A stretch of DNA of 64,000 nt, taken from the IMG/VR virus record IMGVR_UViG_3300047325_000130, positions 1-64,000 of that record. The stretch is one strand, 5' to 3'. The notes under the pieces were generated by a model that did no database searches, was not told the origin of the DNA, and was given only the letters and a program-made list of their open reading frames with translations. A program made the translations under genes and the position numbers. Positions 25,533 through 43,248 of the stretch are shown here, in pieces. This stretch comes from a virus. Each line of letters starts with the position of its first letter. Within the stretch, counting starts at the first letter, position 1.

Positions 25533-28500
25533 ATGGTAAAAATTATTTCTGATGATCCATCGTCGGTATTACAAGTTGAAGGTGCAGTTGAATTAGGTGC
25601 TGCGGCATCAGAAGGTATTCTATTTCCTGATGGTACACGACAAATAACAGCAGCTACCGGTTCCGGTGGCGGTGGTGGTGGCAAAAGCGGTACTGGTCCT
25701 ACTGGTCCAAGAGGTGCACCTGGTCCTACTGGTCCTGCCGGAGGTGGTGGTGGTGGCGGAAGTGGTACTGGTCCTACAGGCCCTACTGGTCCGGGAGGAT
25801 CATTGGGCAATGGCGAAGCTGTTTTAATTCAAACAAGCCCCATATTTAATGATAATAACAATGGTGCAATGAACATTGTTCTTACTCAAACACCAGTTGC
25901 AAACAACATAATTCTTGCTGTAGGTGTTTGTGCGGCTGGCGGGTATATAGATGCACCTACTACATTTACCCAAGTGTCACTCGCGGTTCAACCAAATGGC
26001 TTACAAGTATATGTATGGAAAAGACGTGTAGAAATTGGTGATACTACTAATATTGTAACCTTCGCAGCAAGTCATCAATCACAAGCACAAGCATTTGAAT
26101 ATTCGGGTGTAGGCAACTTTCAAGTTAGTATCGCATCAGGTGTTGATACCATCTCACAAGGAAATGTCGGAGTTGTTTTGCCCGGCTATATTGCTAACGT
26201 AAATCTACCAACAAGACTTGTAAGTATATTTGGACCAAATCTTGATAATGCACAACCACAATTATCAACCGGTTTGGAAGTTTTTACCAAACTTTATCTT
26301 ACACAACTATCCGGATTGTTTTCTATTGCACAAATTGAAAATTTAGATACCATTCCAGCTACTGTATCTTTCAATGGTGTAACATCTGGTGGTAATCTTA
26401 TTAATTCCGCTTACCTATGGAAGATGATAATTGATATCGAACCATATGGTACTTCTCTTACAAGTTTAGGCGATGTTGTTCTCCCCCCTAACCCGGCACC
26501 AGGAAACGTATTAGCATTTGGATCAGATCTCAATTGGCATAGTAAATCTTTATCACTAGAAGATGCTAACGATGTCGTAATAAATGATCTTTCAAATGGT
26601 CAAATACTTGCATGGGATGCATCTACAGGTGTGTGGCATAACGTGCCCCCGGTTGGTGCAACTGGTGCACAAGGTGTTACTGGACCAACAGGCGCACAAG
26701 GTACTGCCGGTCCAATGGGTACCCCGGGATCTGCAACTAATACTGGCGCGACCGGGCCGCAAGGTGTTCAAGGTATAGTAGGACCTACGGGACCTACCGG
26801 TGTAGCAGGTACAGCAGTTAATACAGGTGCAACTGGTCCAACTGGATATACTGGTCCTCAAGGTGTTACAGGTCCTCAAGGTGATGACGGACAACCAGGT
26901 ACCGCAGCAAATACAGGTGCAACAGGACCTACCGGACCACAAGGATTTAGCATAACTGGTCCTACAGGTACACCGGGTACGGCTGTTAATACAGGTTCTA
27001 CAGGTGCTATCGGACCTCAAGGGCCAACCGGTAATACTGGACCAACTGGTGCTGCCGGCGCCGCCGCTAACACAGGTTCTACTGGGCCAACCGGACCACA
27101 AGGAAATACTATAATTGGTCCAACTGGTGCACCCGGAACACCCGGTACAGCAGTTAATACAGGCGCAACTGGTCCAACTGGTGCTCCCGGTCAAAATGGA
27201 TCAACTGGACCACAAGGTATACCTGGTACGGCAACTAATACTGGTGCTCAAGGGCCTACTGGTCCTGCAGGCCAAAATGGTATAAATGGTCAGAATGGCG
27301 CTCAAGGGCCTACTGGGTTGCCTGGAACAGCAACTAATACTGGTGCTACAGGAGCAACCGGTCCGCAAGGATTAATTGGGCCAACCGGAGCTACAGGTAT
27401 TCCCGGTACGGCTGTTAATACAGGTGCTACTGGACCAACCGGACCGCTTGGCATACAAGGTAACACAGGACCTGCATCTACAGTAACTGGGCCAACTGGT
27501 ATTCAAGGTGCAACAGGACCTACAGGTACCCAAGGTATACCGGGATATGCAACTAATACCGGTGCGACTGGCCCTACAGGTCTGCAAGGCATTCAGGGAA
27601 ATACTGGACCAACTGGTATTCCCGGTATTGCAACTAATACTGGCGCAACTGGTCCAATAGGCAATACAGGTCCTACTGGTTATACTGGGCCTCTTGGGCC
27701 AACAGGCTTTATCGGAGAAACTGGTGATCGCGGACCAACTGGGTATACCGGTCCAACAGGTGTGCCGGGATCTGCAACTAATACTGGTGCTACCGGTCCT
27801 GTTGGTTCACAAGGTCCTACCGGTTATACCGGTGCCACTGGTGCAGGAGCTACCGGGCCGCAAGGAAATACTGGTCCGACTGGCGTTACAGGACCTCAAG
27901 GTATTGTTGGTGGTATAGGGCAAACCGGTGCAACTGGACCTCAAGGCGCAACTGGTGCAACGGGTTCAGCAGGAACAAATGGTGTTACTGGGCCAACTGG
28001 TGTAGCTGGTACGGCTGTTAATACAGGCGCTACTGGACCAATTGGACGTACCGGTGCTACCGGTGCTGCATCAATAGTAACAGGGCCAACAGGTGTTACA
28101 GGAGCTACTGGACCACAGGGCATTCAAGGTCCTGTTGGTATAGGTATTACTGGTGCGCAAGGATCTCAAGGTGCAACTGGTCCAACTGGTTATAATGGAT
28201 CAGATGGAGCCACAGGTCCTACAGGTGTCCCAGGATCTGCAACTAATACTGGTGCTACCGGGGCAACAGGTGCTACTGGCGCAGCAGGAACAAATGGATA
28301 TACTGGTCCAACTGGTGCGCAAGGTACTCCGGGATCTGCAACTAATACTGGGGCTACTGGCCCTACTGGAACGGCAGGTCAAACTGGAGCCACAGGTCCT
28401 ACAGGTGTCGGGGCTACTGGCGTAACGGGCCCGGCGGGATCACAAGGTACTGCTGGTGTAACAGGTGCAACTGGTCCAACGGGTGTTGCTGGTATTGCAA

Positions 28501-31500
28501 CTAATACCGGTGCAACTGGACCTCAAGGCGCAACTGGTGCAACGGGTTCAGCAGGAACAAATGGTGTTACTGGGCCAACTGGTGTAGCTGGTACGGCTGT
28601 TAATACAGGCGCTACTGGACCTCAAGGCGACATCGGACCTACTGGTACTCAAGGTCCAACTGGGGTCACCGGAGCAGCGTCGACAATAACTGGTCCAACT
28701 GGGGTCACCGGTCCGACAGGTAATGATGGATCTGCAACTAATACAGGTGCGACAGGTCCGCAAGGCGATATCGGGCCAACCGGAGTTACAGGTCCAACTG
28801 GTTCAGCAGGTACCGCAGCAAATACCGGTGCAACTGGGCCAACTGGTGTTACAGGTCCTACGGGAATCGGTGCTACAGGAGCAACTGGCGCACAAAGTAC
28901 AGTTACTGGTCCTACTGGTTATACAGGACCATCTGGGGTACAAGGTCCTACAGGACAAGCCGGAACATTGGGTGTCACGGGTCCTACTGGGTTGCCTGGT
29001 CAAAATGGTATCTTATTAAGTAATGTTCAAATACAAACATTAACAGGTGACGGATCAACTACTACATTTACAATGCCATTCACTCCAGCAAGTGCTAACA
29101 ATCTGTTAGTTGATATTGACGGCCTTGCACAAACTGCAAATGTTGCATTTACTACAAATGCTAATTCGATCACCTTTGCTTCTGCCCCGGCATTAAATTC
29201 AAACATTGCAATAACAAATCTAGTATTAGGCGATGCTGAATCTAATTTTATCGAAGTTCAAGCAAATAACGTTGTTCTTACAAATAACTTATCGGTATTA
29301 AATTTTAGGGATGGTTTCTCAGTAACCAATACAAATGGCGATATAATAATTGATTCATTGGGATCAGGTGGTATATTATATGAACCTGGTATTCCTCTTA
29401 TTAATGCAACATTAGGTACAATTTATAGTAGAACCGATGCTACACCTGGTGCGAGAGTATTTGTTGCTCAATCCGGCGGAACTGCTCCTTTATCTACACT
29501 ACAACAAACAGATGGAGCAGTTCATCTTTACTTGTTAAATGATTCAACTTCTACTGCGGTTGATATAGGAAGTAGTCCTGCTAACGGTACATATGTTAAC
29601 AATTACATACAACATTATCCATCTGTTGTAAAAGATGAAGATTATTGTACATATATGAATAATGGATATGTTGTATTACCATTCTCTAATCCTCCAGTTA
29701 ATGCAACTACCGGTGCATTCACATTTGAATTTGTTTTTAATGCAAATGTATTAGCAAATTCATTTATACTTAACAGTTCTCACACTGACACAACTGGAAC
29801 TGGGTTTAGACTGTATACGAGTGGTTCTTATATAGGTTTCAATCCTGTATTTACAGGCGCGCCGGGCTTCCAGCAACTTGGTGCAAATTATAACGTTAAT
29901 ACTACCTACCATCTGGCAATAACATATGACGGATCTTATTGCAAATTTTATCTAAATGGTATTATGATGCAAGAGGTTCCAATTACTGGTACATTAACCG
30001 GCGGCACCTCTGATATTGGGTTTGGTACTGGTGATACTGTCGGTGTTGGCAATTATCCATTTTATGCGTATGTTCAAAATTTAGCATTTTATAATGTTGC
30101 TTTAACAGCAACACAAGTTAGTAATCACGCGGAATCAGTGACTGAGGCTGGTACACAATGGCAGCCAGTATCATCAATTGATTTACAAATTAATGGTTCT
30201 GATCAAGGTCAAGTAACTGCAATTAATTTCATCGGTACATCTAATATATCAGTATTAGACGGTATTGCTAATGTATCTATAGGAAGCGGTGGTGCCGGTG
30301 CTGCTAATATAACTGTTTCGTCTAACGGAAATGTTCTCACGAATTCAGTTAAAACATTGGATTTCATAAATGGTTTTGATGTTACGACAGACGGCTCAGG
30401 CAATGTTTTTATAAACGCAACGTCGGTTGGAAATTATCAATCACCTGTTACATTAGATGTAAGTGCAAATAGTGGGCAGACTATAGGAAACGGTTTTACA
30501 ACGGTAGGTTTACCAAACGTTAATACTGATACTAATAATGGTTGGAACACTTCTACAAATCTATATACAATTCCGATAACTGGTACATATTTAATTATAT
30601 CTAAATTACGTTTTACAGATGGTGTAACAAGCGGTGTCAGTTATGGTCAAGGTGTAAACAATAATAACAATATAGATGGTTCTTGGTTTCAATGGTTTGA
30701 AACCAATCCGGAAAGAAACGGCAGTCTTAATGTAAGAGTTCTTTATTGCACTGCTGGCGAACAAATTAATATGTATGCATATTCAAATGATTCATTTGAA
30801 ATTTCAGCTGCTGAATTAAACATATTATTAATAGCTTCGTCAGCCGGACTATCAAACATAACAATTGAATCAAATAATAATGTTATTGGATACGCAAATA
30901 CATTTAATTTTGGAAGTGGGTTCAATGTAACAGTTTCAAATAATATTGTAAACGTTAATAGCATCGGCGGCAGTAGCATCGGCTGCGCCGGCGGTGGTAT
31001 TCTAGCAAGCAATAACTTTATCGTTAAACAGCCCAAGGTCGTACAGACCGCGAGCGCCCGTATACTTTCAAATACCCCTACTTGTACTTTTCCAGCAGCT
31101 ACCACTCCGGGTAACATGGTTGTTTGCTTGATTATGTGTGCTAGTGATACCGCTGTATGGAGTCCATATGGCTTTACGGTAGACTATTCAGGAATAGCTG
31201 CTGGTGCTAGTAGTGGCGGCTACTATACGGGTCTGCCGACCTACGCCCAAAATATGTATTTAGGTCACTCCTTTGTTACCAGTACAAATACTCTAATGAG
31301 TGTATCTTCAAATGGTGGGTTTAGTGACTGCGGTTTGATGATTATTGCAGAAGTTGAAAACGCCGTTGGGTTGGATTTCGATGTATTTGCATTTTCATCT
31401 ACTTCTGCTAACACGGCTAGTATAACGGCCGTTGCTAATTCCTATCAGGGCATCGGTGGCGATATTATCATTGGGGCAGAATGGGATACTGCTGTTGCTG

Positions 31501-34500
31501 GAGCTATTTCCACTACAGCTACCAATGCGGTTAATACTATCTACGACGTACCTTCAGGGTCATCCGGAAATCACTTTGGTGTGAGTGCGTATACTACGTT
31601 GCAAGCCGCACAATCTATTCCCATTACTGTAACCACGAACAGTAACGTAGAAGCGCCGTATATGGTAGTGGTAAAGCCTATTCCTGGTTATGGTACTTTA
31701 TCAATAACCCCTACCGGTTTATATAACAGACCTTCTTTGTCTAGTTTTACTTGGTTAAATCAAGGAACGGCTACCGCTGTTGATCATAGCGGAGGTCCGC
31801 TATCTATTCTTGCCCCCTCCGTAGCAGGTCCAAGCTCCAACTACCGCCTATTAATACAACCTATACCCGGCACAATTTTTAGCTTGATTGCAGAAATTGG
31901 GAGTGAGTCTCCCAATATAAGCTATAACGTTAATGGTATTTATATTTATGACTCTAATTCAGGTAAACTCGCGGGCTTAGAATATATTAGAAATGCTGGC
32001 GAGTTTACTATAGAGTATTTAAATAGTGCTACAAGTTATAACTCAGCACCAGCTTCTTTGCTATACAGCAACCAGGAATCATTTTGGTACAAAATTAACT
32101 GTGATGGTACCAATTTGACTTATTGGGTTAGTTCTGATGGTTGGGATTGGTTATTGCTGTATACTTCTTCTATGACAGCTTTTCTACCCGCTATTACGCA
32201 CGTTGGTTTTGGTGGTGATCCTTTTGCTAGCTCTAGTACCTTTGCGCAAGCAAACTATAAACTAAAAAATTGGTCGTTAGCTGCTACGGCAGATCAACCT
32301 AATTATACCCCACCTGTTCCTGGAATTGGCAGCCCGACGAAACTAAATATTCTTCAAAGCCTTGACTTTACTACGGCTACTAGCAATCGCGTACAGGATA
32401 GCGTTCAAAATAACAACGCCTTCATTGTGAACTGGAGTAATAGTGCGCAAACCAGTCTAGGTTACACCACTGATGGTTCAAGTATGTATATTGACCCTGG
32501 TCCGGTCGTAATGGGGCGTTATTTCTTTACAGTAGCTATTCGGTTTAAGACAACTAGCACGACTACCGGTTCCTCCTATTACCAGGATCCCTCGCTTTAT
32601 AACCTCGCCTTGAATGGCTCGGGCTATGATGGTGGGATTACAATTCATAATGGTTATATTGCACACTGGGCTTCACCGGGGGGTGCAGAAGTTAACACTG
32701 ATTTTAGTGCTGTATCTAATATTCTCGTAAATGACGGTAATTTTCATACGGTGGTTTGGATTTGGGATGGCACCAACATCCGGTTGTACATAGATGGAGT
32801 TAATGCAGGGGTTGATTATACTGGAGGTATTACTCTTTGTTATGGCAATCGTCCTGGCTCTGAAGTCGGTTGCAATCCGTGGATGGGCCGTGTTAATCAA
32901 AACGATTTTTCTACTGCAACTGCTGGCGGATTAGCGGCTACTTTTGCTCAGTTAAGAATTTATGATCATGCTTTAAGCCCGGCTGATATCACTAAACTTA
33001 ATCTAACGGTGCCTGCCAATCAACAAAGCTATCTTCCTTCGGCTAATAATGGTAGTGCTGGGATTATTTATGAAGGTACTTCTTATACCACTATTGCAGC
33101 AGGAAATAATGTTACGATTACCCCAAGTGGTGGTACTCTGACGATTAGTTCTACCGGAAGCGGTGGCGGCGGCGGTGGCGGTGGTGGCGGATCAGGTGGT
33201 ATTAGTACTTACTCTGCAGGCTCAAGTGTATCTAAAAGTATTACGGCTGCTACTTCATGGAATCCCGTACCCGATTTAGCTATTACAATTCAGGGTACAG
33301 GAGTTATTCAAAACTTTTTACTGTCATATTCTATTGAGCATAATGGTTCACACGCTAATTTCTTTGGCGTAAGTTTAGATGGTACTGTGGTATACCCACA
33401 AGAATTTGCAAGTAGCGAATATACATTTGTTTCAAATCTTACTTCTGACAGCATGTATGCTTTTGCTCGTAATTCGTTGCCTATTCAAATTCCTGCAGAT
33501 AACGCATCGCATACCGTTAAAATTATAACACAGGTTGCAGATACTGTTTCAAACTACACAATTTTTGAACATTTTATGTCGATGATCTCCTTATTACCAT
33601 CGACAGGAAGTACTTCAGGTACCCCTGTTGTATTTGGAGTTTATCAATCCACAGGTCAAAATATTCCTGCCCAAACCTTTACCAAAGTACTATTGGATAC
33701 AAAGGAATTTGACAACACTAGCTCTTTTAATCTAGCTAATTCAAGATTTCAGCCTAATGTAGCAGGCTATTACCAAATAAATGGTGCGGTAAATTACCCT
33801 TCCTCTGATTCAAATACTCTAGCTACTATCTATAAAAATGGCTCTGAATTTAAGCGAGGTAGCCAAGCTAATGGAACTTATGGTCAGATTGTATCTGCTT
33901 TAGTTTATCTAAATGGCTCAACTGACTACTTGGAACTTTGGACCTACAATGGCAGTGGTGATATTGCACAACCAACGGCCGAACAAACCTATTTTAATGG
34001 GGCATTGCAGGTATCTGGCTCCTCCATTACGTATGGTAATAGTTCAGTAACTTCTATCGTAGCGGGCAACAATACAGAACTATCTTTAACTAATGGTGCT
34101 TTAACAATTAACAGCACCGGATCCGAATCGTTGTTGATTACAAACGGAACAACAAATATTGTTAATCCTGTTACATTAGAATTTACTGGTGCATCTATAC
34201 TTACAGAAGGCATGTTTCCGAGCACTGTAGCTCCGTCATATGTTCAATCAAATACAGGCGGCGGTGATAGCATATCCTCAGGATCAGCTGTAACCATTGG
34301 CAATATTATTGTTGTATCATTTTTAAGTTTAGGTAATATTACTGGTGTAACGGTATCAGATAATCTTGGCAGCGTTTATACATCAGTCGCACAAATTTCA
34401 GAGCAGTCTAATAATTTTAATGTATTTGTCGGAAAAGTTGCTGCATCTGGCATTATAACAATCAGTGTAGCAGGCGGTCCAAATAATTACGATAGAATAG

Positions 34501-37500
34501 CGTTTATGGAGGTGGCAGGTGCCACCTCCATAGTTAATGCTACAGCATCACTATATGGCAACAGTTCGCCGGAATCATTATCAATTACAACTACACAAGA
34601 AAATTGTTTCCTTGTAGCATTGGTAGGCGGCTATCATAATAATAGCAGCTTTTCATTTAATTCACCATTTATATTAACAACTGAATCAAATGGTAGTGAT
34701 GGAAATGGTATAGGTTACGCATCTGCAAATGCTGCAGGAACATATACTCTAACTGCAAACATAGTCGGCAATTCAGATAACTGGCCAATAATAATTATTG
34801 CACTTGAAAATCCTACAACTGTTTCGGCTGTAATTAATATACCCGGTGTGCAGTATAATGGCAATCTTATAACTTCTATCACAAATGGATCTGGTATAGA
34901 TTTATCTATATCAAATAGCAATCTTACCATTAATACAACAAGTTCATTTAACGTAAATGTTAGTTCTTTAACAACTACAGTCAACGACTTAGTAATCGGT
35001 AACGGTATAGAGGCAAACATTGTAGAAACCGTTGCATCATCGCCTATTATTATTCAATCAAACGGTGGGTCAAACACAACATTAACCTTTGCATCATCGC
35101 CTACTATTAGTAACTATGCACTATTCATTGTTTTCTGGGTCCCTGGGGTAGCAGCTAGCGCTCCTGCACCGTCTGCAGGATTAACATTAATTGGTACTGC
35201 TACTATACCAGGAGGACAAGCAAATGTGTATGGCGGAGTAATAACTTCTAATTCAACATCAGCATTATCTGTAAATTACAACGGGTCTGGTTCATGTTTT
35301 GAAATAGAGAATGTAAGAAATGTTACAACTCCAACTGCTGATAATTGGACACAAACAGGCAGTTCGCCGGCGTACACATTAAGTTTTACCATTCCTACAA
35401 ATACACAAAATTCAATAGTGTTCTTTATCGGCGAACTTTATAATGGTAGTCAAGCAGGCAATACTCCTACTATAACAAATCTTCTTCCAATCGGAAGCAC
35501 AATTGATTATAATATATATAACAATTCAAACGAATGCTATCAACAAGGACATACTCCGGTATTAACGAATACCGAAAATGTTATTATTAGTATGATAGAA
35601 AATAATGATATTATGGGTGCAAGCCGGCCGGGAATTATTTACTTTATGGTTGAAGGTGTCACAGTATCAAAAACTGATCTAGAAATTTCTGTACCTTATA
35701 TGACTGCAGAGCAATCAGGTAATTTGTTAGGGTCATTCACAACATTAAACTTAGGAAATCAGTTAACTGGTGCTGTAAATGGTAATGTATTAACGGTTTC
35801 CGGATCTAATCTAACATTAACCGATGGTGTTTTTGATATTGTTAATCCGTCAATACTAACTGTTAAAAACTTAAATCTATCATCTACCTTTATACCAAAA
35901 ACAATTTCAATCGTGCAATCTGCAGGATTGCCATATGGTAGCAGTTCAAGCGGAAGTGTTACATTAGGAACTATTCCTACCGAAAATAATTTGGTTATTA
36001 TGTCGTATATGGGATCTGGTGCGTTTAGTGGATTCTTAGGTACATTACAAGTATCTGGTAGTGATTACGGAATATATACCTGGATAGCCGACGGCGTAAC
36101 AAACCCAACAGCATATGTATCCGGTAGCAATAATGGCGTTATAGCTATAGTAGAAATAGCAAATGCTGGTATAATATCTACTACATCTGGTACAAATACC
36201 AGCTTAGCAGGCGGATCATTGGGTTATGAAAATAATTTCACATTACCTACAACTACATTAGCAAATTCGTTTGTATTATGGTTAGACGGTTTTGCAGAAC
36301 CCGGATTCAATGAAAATGCAACTTCTAATTTATCAAATTCAACTTTGCTTTCTGTAAACGGGCCAGGTAATTATACGGTATTCTCAGCAGGATGTGGATA
36401 TACTAATACAGCCGGTAGTACTGTATTAACACTTTCAACCCAACAAAATGTGACAGGTAATCCGTTTGCTGCAATCGTAATTCAACCTGCATATACTACA
36501 TCATCTGATGTATCAATCGAACCAAATATACCAATTTTACAAAGTGGTAATGTTATTGGTAATGCAACGACATTTGGTACAGGGTACGGTCTTACTGCTA
36601 ATGTGACAAATGGTATTGCTACATTTGCAACCGATCTTCCGACATTAATGGTAACTGACGGCGTTTCAATTCTACCAGATATAACAACTATAAAAGTACA
36701 AAATTTAAATTTAGAGAGTATTGGTACATTACCAGAGATTGTTCAATTAACTGGTGCATCAACCGGAATGTTAACACTTCCATCGACTGCGACAATAGGT
36801 AATTACTTAGTAATTATTATCGCATCTGGTGTTGGCTCAAGTATGCCATCTGTTCCGGCAGCATATCAAAATTTAACGGAATTTGATAATAATTCTCAGG
36901 GAGTATCAATTGCAATATTTGGTGGTATAATTACAGATGATAATACATCAGTTGATTTAGGATCAAATTCTGATTACAGTGCTTCGATATACGAAATTTC
37001 TAATGTAAGTGCAGTTTATGCAACTTCTGGTAACCCGCTATATTCAAACGGCGGATATTCGTTCCCATCTTCAAATTTTACTATGCCCGGTATAGCAATA
37101 TTTGCAACACATATTGCCGGCGGAACGTCGGTATCAAACATAATACCGACCGGCGCAATATCGGATGGATCATGGTTTAATTCGCACTCTAATCAGGAGG
37201 CTTTTCATACCGGAGGAATTACTGGCGGAATTGTAACATTAGGTTATACCGGCAATAACCCAGAAAATATTAATGCGTATGCGCAAATTTCAATTTTTGG
37301 TACATCTGGTGGCGGAGTTCAATTAACTGCACCAAGCTTGTCATTTAATAGTAATGTTTTTCAAAATGTAACAAATATTAACTTTGTAAGTCCCGTTGCG
37401 AATACAGTAGTTATGGAAGGCGGTAATGTAACTGTTAACTTGCCGGCTCCTTTGGCATTTGCTGGGAAATATTCGTCTGACCTTGGGCCAAATGGAGCAA

Positions 37501-38846
37501 ACACTCGAGCAATTGGCACAACCTACACAAACACTACAAGTTCAGCCATTTTTGTTTCTGTTATAGTTAACAATGGTGGTACTATCGGCACCGGCGCCCA
37601 AGTTTCAATAAACGGTGTCGCAATACCGATGCTATGGCAAAGCGAAATAAATTCACCAACATATCGCGGCTCTTTGGTATTTCTGGTTGATCCAAACGAT
37701 GAATATAAAGTTGATGTCGCAGCTGGTTATCCTTCGGGCGTAGTTGTCGAGTCTTGGAGCGAACGCCCTATCTCCAACGGCCTAACCCAGGGCGGTGCAA
37801 TTGAACTTGTTAGCGTGCAAAATATAACCAACGAAGGATCGATTATATTCCCAATTGAGCCCGGATATGATTATAAAATAGTTGGGCATGGTGTAAGTGC
37901 AAGTACAACAAATGTGTTGGCCGTACAAATGGGCAATGGCTCGCCGGTAACATGGGATTCTTCATCTAATTATTACTGGCAAAATACTTCAGCAGGAGGA
38001 TCAGACGGTGGTGGCCCTACCGGAAGTATTGTAATTTCTGGTGCATTTGCTTCTGGGGCCAGTGCTGCTATCTCATTAGACTTCACTGGTTTAAACACCA
38101 ATGCTACTGGCGGATATGACGTTATTATGGATGGTATCTTTTCATTCCAGAGTCATAAAATCACAGGGTATTATAACTGTTCGGTAGGTAGCACGTCAGC
38201 CATACAACTTTATGTATCTGCTGGCACAATCAGCGGCAACTTCTACCTCTATCGCCGCTCGCTTACAAATGTTGTAGCTGGTAATAATTCACCTTACACA
38301 ATGCCTTTATTGGGCAATAATTTCACAATCGCCAATCAACCAGCAGGTGCGACCGCAGCAAACAGTTCGACCGGAATTTCGATGTTTACCCCAACGAACG
38401 GTAGGGCGCTGCTTGCACTTTTAGACAATACTGCGGTTGGTGCGACGGCTACTATTGAGTTAGGAATTAATTTTCAAAATGCCAATAATGATGCAATCAT
38501 GGGACTATATTTAATTGACAGCGACAACAAAGTAATAATTTTTGGTCCAGATAGTAACCCGACTGTAAATTCTTTAGGTCTTGTGGCATATTGGGATGGG
38601 TATTCAAATTATGCTGGAACCATTTCCTTCAGTGCGGGCTCTTACACCGCGCCAACTTTTTTAAAAATTGTGTATAATGGAACTTCGCTAAGTTTTTATG
38701 CCGGTAATGATCTTAACGCAATGCTTCCATTACATACGGAGTCGTCTACCGCGTATCTCGGTACAATTATCGGTTGTGGTATTTTTCAAGAGGCTGAAAG
38801 CGGACCAATTGCCGGTACTGCATTTCATTATAACCATACAAGTTAA
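25533..38846 (+). CDS. Giant 4437-aa mosaic fibre: ~780-aa collagen stalk plus LamG, C1q-like and other beta-sandwich modules
   Basis: Uninterrupted 13.3-kb ORF after TAAATA (25501); Gly-X-Y repeats; LamG motifs ([19 protein letters not shown]); C1q-like motifs ([25 protein letters not shown]). Confidence 0.85.
26655..29003 (+). repeat. Collagen-like Gly-X-Y repeat region with periodic T/SAxNTGAT interruptions
   Basis: GPT/GAT/GPQ triplets; exact 116-bp duplication at 27924-28039 and 28506-28621. Boundaries approximate. Confidence 0.9.
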
Positions 38847-38853
38847 GTTAAAA

Positions 38854-39015
38854 ACGTTGGTTGCGCCGCCTTTTTAAGCGCGCCAACGTCATATAAAATA
38901 CCCGTAGCTTTGCTTCACACTAGCTACAAACGGAACAGTTGAAATTAGTGCGGAATGAAGCCACTATGCCGCACTGTACCAAAGGTACAACCTAAGTTGG
39001 TAACGACGGCGGCAG
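38854..39015. ncRNA. Candidate structured RNA (multi-hairpin intergenic element)
   Basis: Stems ACGTTGG/CCAACGT, GTAGCT/AGCTAC, AGTGCGG/CCGCACT and TGTACC/GGTACA; GCCGCC in the first hairpin can pair with the distal GGCGGC. Confidence 0.4.
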
Positions 39016-39033
39016 TATCTATCAAATTAATTT

Positions 39034-39627
39034 ATGGAAAACAGAATAAATAATAACATGGATCATCCTTTTATAGAACTAATTGTAAAAAATTTATTAG
39101 ACTTGCCGGAAGCAAAACTATGGCAAGATACTGTAGACTCGGCCGCCCCAAGCGGTTTACCGACTTCGATTGAACTTAATAAAAAGAACAGTCGTTTTTA
39201 TAAAATAAAAAGAAAGAAATCATTCGCATATGTAATACCATTAACAAGAGATTTAAACGAGGACGAAGCATTAGCAATTACAAAAGCATGGGTTGCTGCG
39301 TGGGATAACAAAAAAACAGATTTCGTAATTAATTTCAGTACCAAGGGTAAACAAAAAACTCAAATAAAGAAATTTAAAAAATCTAAATTAGATGCTATTG
39401 CTTTAGAGGCTGCTAAATTAAGTCACACAAAATGGTATCAACAACAAGTAGACGATGGTTGGGGTTATGGTCCAAAACTAGATACTACTATACATAAACA
39501 TCCGCTTTTACTTCCGTGGGATCAATTAGCAGAAAAATATAAAACGCAAAGAATTCAACAATTTTTAGATTTAATGGAAGTATTAAATCAAATGAAATTA
39601 GCTATTGTTTACGACGATCAGATCTAG
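39034..39627 (+). CDS. RyR-domain protein
   Basis: SHxxW...GWGYG..D...KHPLLLPWDQL is the RyR repeat signature. Confidence 0.8.
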   Translation: MENRINNNMDHPFIELIVKNLLDLPEAKLWQDTVDSAAPSGLPTSIELNKKNSRFYKIKRKKSFAYVIPLTRDLNEDEALAITKAWVAAWDNKKTDFVINFSTKGKQKTQIKKFKKSKLDAIALEAAKLSHTKWYQQQVDDGWGYGPKLDTTIHKHPLLLPWDQLAEKYKTQRIQQFLDLMEVLNQMKLAIVYDDQI

Positions 39628-39649
39628 AATTTAAGGCAGCATAGATATA

Positions 39650-40192
39650 ATGCATCAAAATTATTGTATTTCATCTGCTATACAACAAGTTGAGAGAACT
39701 GAACTAAATCAGCTCTTAATTAGCGGAAATTGTCAACAATATCAATGGGCTACATTCCTAAATAATCAAAGAGCTTGTCATGCTGCAATTGAAGCAAAAA
39801 AGGTAATAACCCAAGCCGAATTAATGAGAACAGGGCGGTTAAGTCAAGATTTAAGTAAGATGGGATATAACTGCAAAAATCCAAAATTGCCATTAAGTTA
39901 TATTACCCAAGCATTTGTAAATTATGTATCTAGTATTTCGGTTTCAAAACTATGGGCACATATATACTTAAGATATTTAATTGATATCGGAACATCGTCC
40001 CTTATAAAAGTTTCTATTAATTTACCATCCGTATCGTTAGACTTTGACAATAGTGATTTATGTCTTAATTATATAAGAGAACATATGATAGATATAGATG
40101 AAGAAGAGATGAATTCGGCATTAAATTGGTTATTAACTGGATACGATCAATTATATTGGTTAATTAAAAATCCATCGGAAATAACAACATGA
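39650..40192 (+). CDS. Degenerate heme oxygenase-like protein
   Basis: LxRxxxLxxDL and LWAHIYLRY match the HO fold, but the proximal His and the GDLSGG motif are replaced (QQVE, YLIDIG). Confidence 0.6.
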   Translation: MHQNYCISSAIQQVERTELNQLLISGNCQQYQWATFLNNQRACHAAIEAKKVITQAELMRTGRLSQDLSKMGYNCKNPKLPLSYITQAFVNYVSSISVSKLWAHIYLRYLIDIGTSSLIKVSINLPSVSLDFDNSDLCLNYIREHMIDIDEEEMNSALNWLLTGYDQLYWLIKNPSEITT

Positions 40193-40833
40193 CCAGATTT
40201 TTGACTGACGAAGAACAGATAAGAGCTTGGATAAATGTAAATTGTAATGATAGAGCGCAACAAATTCGTCGCGATGATATTGAAATAAAAGATGACTGTG
40301 TCAGGGTCAACTCGACATTAAATATTTCGAATGACAACCTAAAAGAAATACTGGTGCAATTTTCTTTTTCAAAAAATTTTTACTGCTATAATACCAAACT
40401 TACTACATTGGTTGGTTCTCCGATAGTAGTACAAGGAAATTTTGAATGTAGCGATACTGCTATAACATCGTTAAAAGGACCAGAACTAGTATATGGTAAC
40501 TTTATTTGCAAAGGAACAAAAATAACAAATTTTATTGGATGTCCTAATGTTACTGGTTATATAGATGCATATAATAACAAATTAACATCTATAGATGGAC
40601 TTCCATCAAATTTTGATAATATTTCTATTTCATATGATCCAAATCTGGCAGTATTAAAATTTATAAAATTAAACATATCCGAAGTATATCTCATTGTTGG
40701 CAGCATACTTCTTAGTAAAAGTTCTACAATTATTAATAAATATTTACAAAATTATGAGCCACTTAAAAAAAGAATATTAGCTTGTCAAAAAGAACTAATA
40801 GATAATGGCTTTATAGGCAATGCCTTATGGTAA
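40189..40833 (+). CDS. Variable LRR array gene 1 (divergent)
   Basis: Degenerate VxGxFxCxxxxLTSLxG repeats; shared C-cap CQKELIDNGFIGNALW. Confidence 0.8.
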   Translation: MTRFLTDEEQIRAWINVNCNDRAQQIRRDDIEIKDDCVRVNSTLNISNDNLKEILVQFSFSKNFYCYNTKLTTLVGSPIVVQGNFECSDTAITSLKGPELVYGNFICKGTKITNFIGCPNVTGYIDAYNNKLTSIDGLPSNFDNISISYDPNLAVLKFIKLNISEVYLIVGSILLSKSSTIINKYLQNYEPLKKRILACQKELIDNGFIGNALW

Positions 40834-41339
40834 AAATAGAAGAGTATTTTCAAATAGGTGATTATACAATCAAAGATGGATTGATTTCCACTGGTGATAA
40901 TGTCAAATTAATTAAAAAAGTTAAAAAATTACCAGTTCAATTCGGTCATGTTGGTGGTAGTTTTAGTTGTTATAACAATCAACTCACTTCTTTAGTTGGA
41001 TGTCCTGAATCAGTTGGTGATTATTTTAGTTGTGATAAAAATCAACTCATTTCTTTAGAAGGAGCTCCTAAATCAGTTAGTGGTGGTTTTTATTGTGGTA
41101 ATAATAAACTCACTTCTTTAGAAGGTGCACCTAAAGAAGTTGGTGGTTATTTTTATTGTGATTGGACAGAAAATCTACCTTTACTAAGATTGGTAAGATA
41201 TAAAAAAATAGAAACATACAATAATCAAGTGAATACAATTATAAGAAAATATTCCAATCATACTCCATTAAAAGAAGCCATTTTATTATGTCAGAAAGAA
41301 CTGATTGATAACGGCTTTGTAGGAAATGCAGCGTGGTAG
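40827..41339 (+). CDS. Variable LRR array gene 2 (3 repeats)
   Basis: 21-aa repeat VGGxFxCxxNxLTSLxGxPxx; conserved caps. Confidence 0.85.
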   Translation: MVKIEEYFQIGDYTIKDGLISTGDNVKLIKKVKKLPVQFGHVGGSFSCYNNQLTSLVGCPESVGDYFSCDKNQLISLEGAPKSVSGGFYCGNNKLTSLEGAPKEVGGYFYCDWTENLPLLRLVRYKKIETYNNQVNTIIRKYSNHTPLKEAILLCQKELIDNGFVGNAAW

Positions 41340-42037
41340 ATATAAAAGAATATTTTGAAATAAAAAATTACACTATAAAAGATGGATTGATTTCCGTCGA
41401 TGGTAATGTTTCATTAATCAAGAAAGTAAAAAAACTACCTTTTAAATTTGGTCAAATTGGTGGTTATTTTTATTGTTCTGAAAATCAACTAACTTCGTTA
41501 GTTGGGTGTCCAAATGAAGTTGGTGGTGATTTTTATTGTAATAATAATAAACTTACTTCTTTAGTTGAGAGTCCAAATAAAGTTGGAGGTAATTTTGATT
41601 GTTACAATAATAAACTTATGTCTTTAGCCGGAGCTCCAAAATCCGTTGGAGGTTATTTTGATTGTGCTAATAATCAACTCACCTCTTTAGAGGGAGCTCC
41701 GCAATCAGTTGGCGGTTATTTTTATTGTGCTTATAATCAACTCACTTCTTTAGAAGGAGCTCCAAATTCAGTTGGTATTTATTTTGATTGTCGTTATAAT
41801 AAACTCACTTCTTTAGAAGGAGCTCCTAAAGAAGTTGGTGGTAGTTTTTATCTTTCCTGGTCAAAAGATTTACCTTTACTAAGATTGGTAAGATATAAAA
41901 AAGTAGAAACATATAATAATGATCAAGTAAATGATATTATAAACAAATATTCTAATCATAAGCCATTAAAAGAAGCCATCATTGGTTGTCAGAAAGAACT
42001 AATAGATAATGGCTTTATAGGTAATGCAGCATGGTAG
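41333..42037 (+). CDS. Variable LRR array gene 3 (6 repeats; GTG start)
   Basis: Same caps and repeat as gene 2. Confidence 0.85.
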   Translation: MVDIKEYFEIKNYTIKDGLISVDGNVSLIKKVKKLPFKFGQIGGYFYCSENQLTSLVGCPNEVGGDFYCNNNKLTSLVESPNKVGGNFDCYNNKLMSLAGAPKSVGGYFDCANNQLTSLEGAPQSVGGYFYCAYNQLTSLEGAPNSVGIYFDCRYNKLTSLEGAPKEVGGSFYLSWSKDLPLLRLVRYKKVETYNNDQVNDIINKYSNHKPLKEAIIGCQKELIDNGFIGNAAW

Positions 42038-42729
42038 ATATAAAAGAATATTTTAGAATAGATGATTATACAATCAAAGATGGATTAATTTCTACCAATG
42101 ATGATGTTGAATTAATCAAGAAAGTAAAAGAATTACCAGTTCAATTCGGTTATGTTGGCGGTTATTTTTATTGTTATGATAATCAACTCACTTCTTTAGA
42201 AGGATCTCCGGAATCCGTTGGTGACGATTTTTATTGTTCTGAAAATCAACTAACTTCGTTAGTTGGGTGTCCAAATGAAGTTGGCGGCGGTTTTGTTTGT
42301 CGTGATAATCAACTCACTTCTTTGGAAGGATCTCCACAATCGGTAGGTAATGGTTTTTACTGTCATAATAATCAACTCACTTCTTTAGACGGAGCTCCTG
42401 AATCCGTTGACGGTGATTTTGATTGTCGTAATAATCTACTTACTTCTTTAGCTGGATCTCCGCAATCCGTTGGTGGTAGTTTTAATTGTTCTAATAATAA
42501 ACTCACCTCTTTAGAAGGAGCTCCAAAATTCGTTGGCGGTTATTTTTATTGTGGTTGGTCAGAAAATTTACCATTACTAAGATTAGTAAGATATAAAAAA
42601 GTACAAACATATAGTCGAGTAAATGAAATTATAAGAAAATATTCTTATCATAAGCCATTAAAAGAAGCTATATTATTATGTCAGAAAGAACTAATTGATA
42701 ATGGCTTTGTAGGAAACGCAGCATGGTAG
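42031..42729 (+). CDS. Variable LRR array gene 4 (6 repeats)
   Basis: Same caps and repeat as gene 2. Confidence 0.85.
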   Translation: MVDIKEYFRIDDYTIKDGLISTNDDVELIKKVKELPVQFGYVGGYFYCYDNQLTSLEGSPESVGDDFYCSENQLTSLVGCPNEVGGGFVCRDNQLTSLEGSPQSVGNGFYCHNNQLTSLDGAPESVDGDFDCRNNLLTSLAGSPQSVGGSFNCSNNKLTSLEGAPKFVGGYFYCGWSENLPLLRLVRYKKVQTYSRVNEIIRKYSYHKPLKEAILLCQKELIDNGFVGNAAW

Positions 42730-43221
42730 ATATAAAAAATATTTTCAAATAGAAAATTATACCATAAAAGATGGATTAATTTCTACTGATGATGATGTCA
42801 GATTAATCAAGAAAGTTGAAAAATTACCTTTTAAATTCGGTCATATTGGTGGTTATTTTGATTGTCGTAATAATAAACTCATTTCTTTAGAGGGTGCTTC
42901 AAAATACGTTGGCGGCAGTTTTTCTTGCGCTTATAATAAACTCACTTCTTTAGAAGGAGCTCCGCAATCAGTTGGTGTTATGATAATAAACTCACTTCTT
43001 TAGAAGGAGCTCCGCAATCAGTTGGTGGCAGTTTTTATCTTACTTGGTCAGAAAATTTACCATTACTAAGATTGATAATATATCAAACTGTACAAACATT
43101 CAATAGTCAAGTAGATAAAATTATAGGAAAATATTGTAATCATAAACCATTAAAAGAAGCCATATTATTATGTCAGAAAGAACTAATAGATAACGGCTTT
43201 ATAGGGAATGCAGCATGGTAA
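42723..43221 (+). pseudogene. Variable LRR array gene 5, inactivated
   Basis: Same ATGGTAG start and NAAW* end as its paralogs; 1-nt loss in the A-run at 42734-42739 and a 13-nt deletion at ~42977. Confidence 0.85.
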
Positions 43222-43248
43222 AGCCGGGGTTACCCCGGCTTTACTTTT
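43218..43248. terminator. Bidirectional intrinsic terminator
   Basis: GTAAAGCCGGGG-TTA-CCCCGGCTTTAC followed by TTTT, between convergent genes. Confidence 0.85.

What the first reader, a model, noticed from the sequence alone, without database searches (positions are those of the whole stretch)
40189..43221. VLR-like array of variable LRR genes with shuffled 63-bp cassettes and a silent copy
Seen: five head-to-tail paralogs joined by the same 7-nt start/stop overlap ((A/G)TGGTA(A/G)). Genes 2-5 share N- and C-caps and carry 3, 6, 6 and ~3 copies of a 21-aa repeat (VGGxFxCxxNxLTSLxGxPxx); gene 1 is divergent. Variation is concentrated at the x positions around F and C, the predicted concave binding face (S/Y/G/D/N/R/H/A/V). 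An identical 58-bp module is repeat 1 of gene 3 (41466-41523) and repeat 2 of gene 4 (42227-42284). Gene 5 is a doubly inactivated copy with an exact internal duplication. Established: this LRR class occurs in bacteria and phages, and lamprey VLRs use constant caps with a variable number of LRR cassettes. Inference: a recombination/gene-conversion-driven binder repertoire, e.g. against polymorphic host defence proteins, with the pseudogene serving as a cassette donor.
Basis: partly seen in the sequence, partly recalled or inferred. Interest (0 to 1): 0.8.

Follow-up and report, generated by a model that had tools for sequence, protein, structure and literature searches.

The report
Phage array of variable LRR binders
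A fragment of a huge uncultured phage from a moss metagenome carries four intact genes and one broken gene in a row for small leucine-rich-repeat proteins; they share constant ends but differ in repeat number and on the predicted binding face, so they look like an inherited, slowly recombining set of binders with unknown targets, not an antibody-like assembly system.

Summary
Five head-to-tail paralogs (40189-43221) are joined by (A/G)TGGTA(A/G) stop/start overlaps. They carry 3, 6, 6 and about 3 copies of a 63-bp (21-aa) repeat. A 58-bp tract is shared exactly by gene 3 repeat 1 and gene 4 repeat 2. Gene 5 is broken twice.

The repeats are 21-residue "cysteine-ladder" LRRs; the best solved match is Listeria InlJ, followed by the IpaH/SspH LRR domains. 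AlphaFold gives a confident solenoid (pLDDT 92). The variable residues sit on the concave beta-sheet and evolve faster than synonymous sites (about 1.9x), while the caps and scaffold are under purifying selection (0.1-0.4).

A roughly 55-aa C-terminal module ending in GNAxW defines a virus-only family. It has 307 clusters, no Pfam match and no match in 185,579 prokaryote genomes. In other huge-phage contigs it forms arrays of up to 9-10 genes with the same overlap.

The VLR analogy fails mechanistically. All genes are complete, the units are old (about 76% identical), and only two recent tracts are detectable. The pseudogene is recent and donates nothing. No reverse transcriptase was found, and related arrays are identical across four samples.

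This scan has met similar arrays before on other phage DNA. Targets and function are untested.

The parts
38854..38888 (+). Hairpin after the 4437-aa fibre-like gene. It is the likely 5' boundary of the transcription unit that holds the array.
   Evidence: Fold -17 kcal/mol, z -2.6. The boundary role is inferred.
39034..39627 (+). RyR-domain gene, co-oriented and upstream of the array.
   Evidence: Pfam RyR, E 6.4e-11.
39650..40192 (+). Short heme-oxygenase-like gene. Its stop overlaps the start of gene 1 (ATGA).
   Evidence: Pfam Heme_oxygenase, E 7.3e-6; junction.
40189..40833 (+). Gene 1: a divergent family member with 4-5 degenerate LRR units and the family C-terminal module.
   Evidence: About 40% identical to genes 2-4; the C-terminal motif is conserved.
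40827..41339 (+). Gene 2: N-cap, 3 LRR units and the C-terminal module.
   Evidence: Residues 72-170 are identical to metagenomic protein P0076.
41333..42037 (+). Gene 3 (GTG start): N-cap, 6 LRR units and the C-terminal module.
   Evidence: Pfam LRR_4 29.1 bits against a cut-off of 27.
42031..42729 (+). Gene 4: N-cap, 6 LRR units and the C-terminal module.
   Evidence: LRR_4 32.7 bits; AlphaFold2 pLDDT 92.4.
42723..43221 (+). Gene 5: a recently inactivated copy with two frameshifts, 2 full units, one truncated unit and both caps.
   Evidence: Cap dN/dS 0.16-0.37, like the intact copies.
42737..42738 (+). Lesion 1 of gene 5: one base missing relative to genes 3 and 4 (codon 6).
   Evidence: Cap alignment. 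A Logan contig covers 42687-42878 with 0 differences.
42933..43027 (+). Lesion 2 of gene 5: an exact 50-bp period, meaning a 63-bp unit that lacks 13 bp and whose 45-bp 3' part is identical to the preceding unit.
   Evidence: TRF: period 50, 1.9 copies, 100% match; unit alignment.
41466..41523 (+). 58-bp tract in gene 3 repeat 1, identical to 42227-42284.
   Evidence: exceeds all 2000 null shuffles.
42227..42284 (+). 58-bp tract in gene 4 repeat 2, identical to 41466-41523 but one repeat out of register.
43217..43245 (.). 13-bp GC-rich hairpin followed by CUUUU. A terminator-like end of the array, shared with the convergent Hsp20 gene.
   Evidence: Fold -21.6 kcal/mol, z -4.6.

Best explanation
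This is a tandem cluster of a virus-specific multigene family of small, signal-less LRR proteins. Each protein has three parts: a beta-rich N-cap; 2-8 cysteine-ladder LRR units whose concave sheet carries the variable, paratope-like residues; and a constant helical C-terminal module of about 55 aa ending in GNAxW. The genes are co-oriented. Each start overlaps the previous stop, and an AGG(A)-type ribosome-binding motif lies inside the conserved Gly-Asn codons of the upstream gene. They are therefore probably made together, as a panel, from one transcript that ends at the hairpin at 43217-43245. Diversity is inherited rather than generated on demand. It arises by gene duplication and loss (gene 5 is a fresh loss), by gain or loss of whole 63-bp units, by occasional short exchanges between paralogs, and by selection for change on the binding face. 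The most likely role (inferred, not shown) is that the proteins bind variable host or competitor proteins inside the infected cell, for example defence proteins. The constant C-terminal module would act as the solenoid cap and possibly as a shared docking handle.
For: Anatomy and junctions. LRR class: the best PDB profile hit is InlJ (E 2.9e-16), then SspH1/2 and IpaH. The AlphaFold2 solenoid has pLDDT 92.4, with strands on unit positions 4-6. Foldseek's best hits are the IpaH3 and SspH1 LRR domains, SDS22 and hagfish VLR. Selection: caps dN/dS 0.12-0.44; scaffold 0.20; concave positions 4/6/8 dN / overall dS 1.86 (bootstrap 1.48-2.41); convex variable positions 1.39 (0.91-1.95). Old paralogs: units average 76% identity with no positional orthology, and caps are 76-88% identical. 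In a cap tree each window gene is nearer to a protein from another contig than to its neighbours. Recent exchange: only the 58-bp tract and the 45-bp tract inside gene 5 stand out from a null with mean 27 and maximum 46. Family: more than 6900 LRR-level hits. The C-terminal module occurs in 307 clusters at 50% identity, always at the extreme C-terminus. It has no Pfam match and no match in 185,579 prokaryote genomes. Arrays of 4-9 genes with the same overlap occur in phage contigs of up to 310 kb. Those arrays are stable: 0 differences over 7.8-10.8 kb between contigs from four samples. No reverse transcriptase is present.
Against: No expression, localisation or binding data exist. The dN/dS estimate is a crude Nei-Gojobori count over paralogous repeat units, with codon bias and some saturation. 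The convex face also evolves near the neutral rate, so relaxed constraint explains part of the signal. The array lies just downstream of tail-fibre genes on the same strand, so a virion-associated role is not excluded. The record is only about 26% of the genome, and the host is unknown. The identical arrays across samples come from a different phage lineage and possibly from one study.
Confidence: 0.65

Rival explanations
1. VLR-like or antigenic-variation-like programmed system: silent cassettes, including the pseudogene, are copied into expressed genes to create new binders at high frequency.
For: Constant caps with a variable number of units. One 58-bp tract sits in a different register in two genes. 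A pseudogene lies at the end of the array.
Against: Four complete, translationally coupled genes and no incomplete acceptor. Pseudogene units match no other gene above 90%, and its caps are still under purifying selection, so it is recent. Units are about 76% identical with synonymous divergence of about 0.46, which indicates old copies rather than fresh ones. Related arrays are identical in four samples. No recombinase or reverse transcriptase was seen beside the locus.
Confidence: 0.04
2. Virion-associated host-recognition proteins: the constant C-terminal (or N-terminal) module docks on a fibre or the baseplate, and the variable LRR face binds host surface structures, broadening host range.
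For: The array follows tail-fibre and collagen-like genes on the same strand. In L011 family members directly follow a 1139-aa protein that I read as baseplate-like from its sequence; this was not tested. LRR domains on presumed host-recognition fibres are reported for the jumbo phage Goslar (bioRxiv 10.64898/2026.04.21.720040).
Against: A hairpin and a 190-bp spacer separate the array from the fibre gene. Its immediate partners are RyR-domain and heme-oxygenase-like genes. Arrays in other phages sit beside Sir2, HNH, ATPase, endolysin, helicase or terminase genes, with no constant structural neighbour. No late-promoter motif (TATAAATA) precedes the array.
Confidence: 0.15
3. Head-packaged internal proteins, injected with the DNA like T4 IPI, that neutralise host defences on entry. 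The conserved N-terminus would act as a capsid-targeting tag.
For: The N-terminus is conserved and contains an (I/L)-x-E tripeptide. The loci are tandem and plastic, like T-even IP loci. This was a lead from earlier notes of this scan.
Against: The same motif lies 4 to about 130 residues from the N-terminus in other family members, including the sixth copy in this record. It is also a confidently folded part of the N-cap. It therefore behaves as a structural element, not a terminal tag. No prohead protease or head genes are available in this record to compare.
Confidence: 0.08
4. Diversity-generating retroelement (DGR) target: adenine mutagenesis of AAY codons created the NNY codons at the variable sites.
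For: Within the close subfamily, positions 4, 6 and 8 carry only NNY-encodable residues. An earlier first-reader note made the same point.
Against: No reverse transcriptase is present in the 103-kb record, and there is no template-like copy outside the array. In 707 units of the wider family, 4.5-8.3% of these positions are K, E, Q, M or W. Units also differ at many scaffold and synonymous sites. T-ending two-fold codons are expected in a 36% GC genome.
Confidence: 0.02

Closest known systems
Listeria monocytogenes internalin J (InlJ, PDB 3bz5), the 21-residue cysteine-ladder LRR
   Same: It has the same 21-residue period, a Cys in place of the inner hydrophobic residue, and the N-x-L-T-x-L core. 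It is the best solved-structure sequence match (E 2.9e-16).
   Different: From established knowledge, InlJ is a secreted, cell-wall-anchored virulence protein with further domains. The phage proteins are 150-290 aa, have no signal peptide, and have their own N-cap and a virus-only C-terminal module.
IpaH/SspH (NEL) effector families of Shigella and Salmonella
   Same: Both are paralog families that join a variable bacterial-type LRR target-recognition domain to a constant C-terminal domain. Their LRR domains are the best structural matches.
   Different: The constant part here is about 55 aa of helices with no Pfam match, not a roughly 300-aa ubiquitin-ligase domain. No enzymatic role is indicated.
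Lamprey/hagfish variable lymphocyte receptors (VLR)
   Same: Both have constant caps, a variable number of LRR modules and variable concave-face residues. Hagfish VLR is among the fold matches.
   Different: VLR genes are assembled somatically from silent cassettes into an incomplete gene. Here every copy is a complete inherited gene, and exchange is rare.
Repeat-protein host-range families of large DNA viruses (poxvirus ankyrin/PRANC; giant-virus ankyrin, FNIP and LRR expansions)
   Same: Both combine a variable repeat domain with a short conserved C-terminal helical module, in multi-copy tandem families in plastic genome regions of large viruses. This comparison rests on established knowledge and is an analogy only.
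   Different: The repeat type and host domain differ. No similarity of the C-terminal module to an F-box was tested or shown.
LRR gene arrays in other huge phages noted earlier in this scan
   Same: They show the same 21-aa cysteine-ladder unit, tandem arrays, a variable binding face and InlJ as the closest solved relative.
   Different: Those notes are AI notes, not publications. Caps differ between lineages. This array is small (5 genes, plus 1 elsewhere in the record).

Membership tests
LRR superfamily (Pfam LRR_4, PF12799) | Tandem LxxLxLxxNxL-type units | tested here: met
   17 units in the window. The Asn and two Leu are invariant in 79 distinct units.
LRR superfamily (Pfam LRR_4, PF12799) | Score above Pfam's gathering cut-off | tested here: met
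   Gene 3 scores 29.1 bits and gene 4 scores 32.7 bits against a cut-off of 27. Genes 1 and 2 fall below threshold.
LRR superfamily (Pfam LRR_4, PF12799) | Curved solenoid with a parallel sheet on the concave side | tested here: met
   AlphaFold2 pLDDT 92.4 with one short strand per unit. All top Foldseek hits are LRR domains, although E-values are only about 0.01.
InlJ-type cysteine-ladder LRR | 21-residue period with Cys at the inner position | tested here: met
   63-bp period. Cys occurs in 78 of 79 units. The InlJ profile hit has E 2.9e-16.
Internalin family | Signal peptide, inter-repeat Ig-like domain and cell-wall anchor | tested here: not met
   The proteins are 170-234 aa, start MV(D/K)I(K/E)EYF without a hydrophobic leader, and have no extra domains.
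IpaH/SspH NEL effectors | C-terminal NEL ubiquitin-ligase domain | tested here: not met
   The C-terminal part is about 55 aa and matches no Pfam family.
VLR-type assembly system | Incomplete expressed gene flanked by silent partial cassettes that are copied in | tested here: not met
   There are four complete ORFs. The only silent copy is a full-length, recently broken gene whose units match no other gene closely.
VLR-type assembly system | AID/APOBEC-like deaminase | not tested
   No search was run. The record is also only about 26% of the genome.
Diversity-generating retroelement | Reverse transcriptase near the target | tested here: not met
   No RVT_1 match in the 103,636-bp record; the controls rang.
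Diversity-generating retroelement | Template repeat that differs from the variable repeat only at adenines | tested here: not met
   blastn of the array against the record finds only the C-terminal end of the sixth paralog. Units also differ at many non-variable sites.
T4-type internal proteins with capsid-targeting sequence | Conserved tag at the extreme N-terminus, cleaved by the prohead protease | tested here: inconclusive
   The motif is N-terminal in genes 2-5 but internal (up to about residue 130) in other members, and it is predicted to be folded. Cleavage is not testable here.

The most novel reading that the evidence does not exclude
The constant, virus-only C-terminal module may be a docking handle. 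Whatever the variable LRR face binds would then be delivered to one shared machine, for instance the phage's own ClpA/Lon-type protease at 1207-3972. Under this reading the array is a set of interchangeable substrate adaptors, a phage counterpart of the poxvirus ankyrin/PRANC or IpaH families. In support, the module also occurs on a few proteins without LRRs (P0130, P0147, P0164), which suggests an autonomous function beyond capping. Nothing tested here shows such binding.
Probability: 0.1. Interest if true: 0.85.

Novelty: new variant of a known kind. Interest (0 to 1): 0.5.

Why it matters
Huge phages repeatedly devote tandem arrays to small LRR proteins with a conserved scaffold and a fast-changing binding face. 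That pattern points to a large, unstudied layer of protein-protein conflict between phages and their hosts. The family offers compact, naturally diversified binder scaffolds, about 150-290 aa, cytosolic and built from modular 21-aa units. Its C-terminal module is undescribed and restricted to viruses. Identifying even one target would show whether these proteins are anti-defence binders, host-takeover factors or adhesins. This particular array is a modest example. Its value is that it clearly shows the mode of evolution: birth and death of genes, gain and loss of units, and rare exchange between paralogs.

Tried and rejected
The DNA of the mosaic proteins P0076, P0005, P0002 and P0015 could therefore not be fetched, and the mosaics rest on protein sequence only. 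Those on short contigs may be assembly chimeras.

2. Searches for the orthologous locus in relatives failed.
- The heme-oxygenase-like and vWA neighbours gave nothing in IMG/VR.
- Gene 1 gave nothing in metagenome contigs.
- The Hsp20 neighbour found only an unrelated contig of 61% GC without LRRs.
The test "is this very locus variable between strains" could therefore not be done.

3. Read laying on four moss-metagenome runs returned only short Logan contigs (100-400 nt) across the array. Summed depth there was 3-15 times that of the unique flank, which means signal from many paralogs.
- The listed joints mostly carry extra letters or short sides and cannot be assigned to this locus.
- One 207-nt contig in X2/X3 (the same data set filed twice) matches 41413-41514 exactly and then repeats a gene-3-repeat-1-like unit. 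This could be a unit-gain allele or another paralog, and it is left as a lead.
- No contig was listed across the second lesion of gene 5.

4. Exact tracts shared with other contigs of sample 3300047325 are at most 45 bp, which is within the null range given the many comparisons.

5. The 274-aa proteins downstream of arrays in L021 and L045 are not homologous to the window's vWA protein, so there is no synteny.

6. TATAAATA is not enriched (7 found against 12 expected) and none precedes the array. The sigma-70 scan found fewer sites than its shuffles. Timing of expression is unknown.

7. The C-terminal module folded alone gave only a two-helix hairpin at pLDDT 71, too small for a meaningful fold search. 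The ESM Atlas gave one unnamed viral cluster at 0.76.

8. Literature searches found no description of this family.

Full report
CONTEXT

The window is the first 64 kb of a 103,636-bp IMG/VR virus record that CheckV rates as 26% complete, which implies a phage of roughly 400 kb. PHROG matches show tail-fibre and virion proteins, a ClpA/Lon-type ATP-dependent protease and NAD-salvage enzymes. A 4437-aa collagen-like protein ends at 38846. Public runs that hold the stretch are moss metagenomes.

THE OBSERVATION

- Five co-oriented genes run from 40189 to 43221.
- Each start overlaps the previous stop in the heptamer (A/G)TGGTA(A/G).
- Genes 2-4 have a 41-aa N-cap, then 3, 6 and 6 units of 63 bp (21 aa), a cap-like half unit and a helical tail of about 55 aa.
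- Gene 1 is a divergent member, about 40% identical, with degenerate units but the same C-terminal motif.
- Gene 5 is broken twice. One base is missing between 42737 and 42738. One unit lacks 13 bp, which produces the exact 50-bp period at 42933-43027.
- A Logan contig of run X1 covers 42687-42878 without a difference, so the first lesion is in the reads; X1 may be the source sample.
- The tract 41466-41523 is identical to 42227-42284.

A 13-bp GC hairpin with a U-rich tail closes the array. A weaker hairpin follows the upstream fibre gene. The likely transcription unit therefore comprises the RyR-domain gene, the heme-oxygenase-like gene and the five LRR genes. This unit is inferred, not shown.

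WHAT THE PROTEINS ARE

Pfam recognises only LRR_4, just above threshold, in genes 3 and 4. A profile of 28 family members finds Listeria InlJ as the best solved relative (E 2.9e-16), followed by the LRR domains of SspH1, SspH2 and IpaH. InlJ is the prototype of the 21-residue cysteine-ladder LRR. The phage units have the same period, and Cys occupies that position in 78 of 79 distinct units.

AlphaFold2 models gene 4 with mean pLDDT 92.4 as a solenoid. It has one short strand per unit on unit positions 4-6 and ends in three helices. Foldseek ranks the IpaH3 and SspH1 LRR domains, SDS22 and a hagfish VLR first, all with weak E-values. There is no signal peptide or membrane segment (sequence).

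In canonical LRR geometry the Phe (position 5) and Cys (position 7) point into the core. Positions 4, 6 and 8 lie on the concave sheet. I inferred this from the DSSP string and the motif, not from coordinates.

VARIABILITY AND SELECTION

In 79 distinct units of the close subfamily, entropy peaks at positions 8, 6 and 4 (3.0, 2.4 and 2.4 bits). The residues there are Y, D, N, S, R, H, G and A. Positions 9, 16, 20 and 21 also vary, but with K, E, Q and S.

I ran a Nei-Gojobori count over 32 units with available DNA, taken from the window and three related loci.

| Site class | dN / overall dS |
|---|---|
| Concave positions 4, 6, 8 | 1.86 (bootstrap 1.48-2.41) |
| Convex variable positions | 1.39 (0.91-1.95) |
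| Scaffold | 0.20 |
| N- and C-caps (gene pairs) | 0.12-0.44 |

The per-site ratios are inflated because the variable codons are two-fold, T-ending codons, so I use the pooled dS. The result points to diversifying selection on the binding face, but the method is crude.

The caps of gene 5 show the same low ratio as those of the intact genes, so its inactivation is recent.

RECOMBINATION

Units average 76% nucleotide identity. Units at the same ordinal position in different genes are no more alike than any other pair. Caps are 76-88% identical.

Against a column-preserving null (longest exact run: mean 27, maximum 46 in 2000 trials), two tracts stand out. The 58-bp tract shared by genes 3 and 4 exceeds every trial; the 45-bp tract between adjacent units of gene 5 lies at the upper edge of the null (maximum 46). 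All other runs are at most 33 bp.

In a tree of the caps, each window gene is closer to a protein from another contig than to its neighbours: gene 2 to P0076 (93%), gene 4 to P0024 (92%), gene 3 to P0015 (84%) and gene 5 to P0067 (82%). Most forks in that tree are weak. This is evolution by birth and death of genes, not concerted evolution.

At the protein level, relatives are mosaics.
- P0076 equals the first 86 residues of P0014 joined to residues 72-170 of gene 2.
- P0005 shares 58 consecutive residues with gene 3.
- P0002 and P0015 appear identical over roughly their first 150 residues (read by eye, not computed) and then diverge.
Some of them sit on contigs of 1-3 kb and could be assembly chimeras.

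THE FAMILY

The LRR part has thousands of metagenomic relatives (6922 with E at most 0.001 among 8000 scored). Full-length close relatives come in 149, 170, 191, 212 and 233 aa, which are steps of one unit.

A profile of the C-terminal module alone finds 307 clusters at 50% identity among 1.84 billion proteins. The module is always at the extreme C-terminus of proteins of about 140-310 aa. A few of these proteins have no LRRs. The module has no Pfam match. No relative was found in one genome each of 185,579 prokaryote species.

In IMG/VR, 44 loci carry the family.
- Arrays of four to nine genes with the same ATGGTA(G/A) overlap occur in contigs of up to 310 kb.
- Their neighbours are Sir2, HNH, ATPase, endolysin, helicase or terminase genes, not a fixed structural partner.
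- Several arrays lie at contig ends, as expected for repeats that break assemblies.
- Arrays in contigs of different length from four samples are identical over 7.8-10.8 kb, so there is no sign of fast shuffling.

The record holds a sixth member at 86898-87983, with an extra N-terminal region. Five other contigs from sample 3300047325, with similar GC, hold at least twelve more. Whether they belong to the same genome is unknown.

The junction is a built-in coupling device. The codons for the conserved Gly-Asn form AGG(A) 8-9 nt before the next start, and the Trp-stop overlaps Met-Val. Each duplicated gene therefore brings the ribosome-binding site for its successor.

ALTERNATIVES TESTED

- DGR. 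There is no reverse transcriptase in the record and no template-like copy. K, E, Q, M or W occupy 4.5-8.3% of the variable sites in 707 units.
- VLR-like assembly. There is no acceptor gene, and no donor role for gene 5.
- Capsid-targeting tag. This was a lead from earlier notes of this scan. The N-terminal motif is internal in several members and is predicted to be folded.
- Virion adhesin. This is not excluded. The evidence for it is that the array lies next to fibre genes; against it are the variable contexts elsewhere.

VERDICT

This is a real but modest example of a widespread, unpublished (as far as my searches reach) family of phage LRR binders. The family has a new constant C-terminal module. 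It evolves by duplication, unit gain and loss, rare exchange between paralogs, and selection on the binding face. The VLR comparison describes the architecture, not the mechanism. Targets and function remain unknown. Similar arrays were noted before in this scan on other phage DNA.

Noticed in passing
window 25533-38846 (+): A 4437-aa ORF with hundreds of collagen-like G-x-T/P triplets punctuated by an NTGATGPTG-type motif, followed by long non-collagen domains. It is probably a giant fibre.
   Followed up: no
window 39034-40192 (+): A RyR-domain protein and a short (180 aa) heme-oxygenase-like protein sit directly upstream of the LRR genes, apparently in the same transcription unit. The stop of the heme-oxygenase-like gene overlaps the start of gene 1.
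   Followed up: partly
G000:C1:86898-87983 (outside the window; loci L008, L010): A sixth family member (about 360 aa) with an extra N-terminal region of about 110 aa, degenerate LRRs and the same C-terminal motif, standing alone.
   Followed up: partly
L011:6705-7202 (+), also P0147 and P0164: Proteins that carry the family's C-terminal module (ending GNAxW) without recognisable LRR units. This suggests that the module is autonomous.
   Followed up: partly
window 40815-40829, 41321-41335, 42019-42033, 42711-42725: The conserved C-terminal Gly-Asn codons of each gene form an AGG(A) ribosome-binding motif 8-9 nt before the next gene's overlapping start. Each duplicated gene therefore carries its successor's translation signals.
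   Followed up: partly
L012:8650-10485 and L013:9549-11618: The replicative helicase and the large terminase in related contigs of the same sample appear to be interrupted by intein-like inserts, judged from their translations.
   Followed up: no
window 38890-39033 (+): A GC-rich leader of about 140 nt lies between the hairpin and the RyR gene in an otherwise AT-rich region. It may be a structured 5' UTR.
   Followed up: no
window 41413-41553, runs X2/X3: A 207-nt Logan contig matches 41413-41514 exactly, then has 5 other letters and a second copy of a gene-3-repeat-1-like unit. This is either a one-unit-longer allele of gene 3 in another moss sample or an unseen paralog.
   Followed up: partly
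L062:4890-5525 (Vibrio phage VB_VaC_SRILMA, PP083314.1): A cultured 196-kb Vibrio phage has a 211-aa protein with eight near-identical units of the same 21-aa LRR type but different caps, next to its DnaB helicase. It could serve as an experimental entry point.
   Followed up: partly
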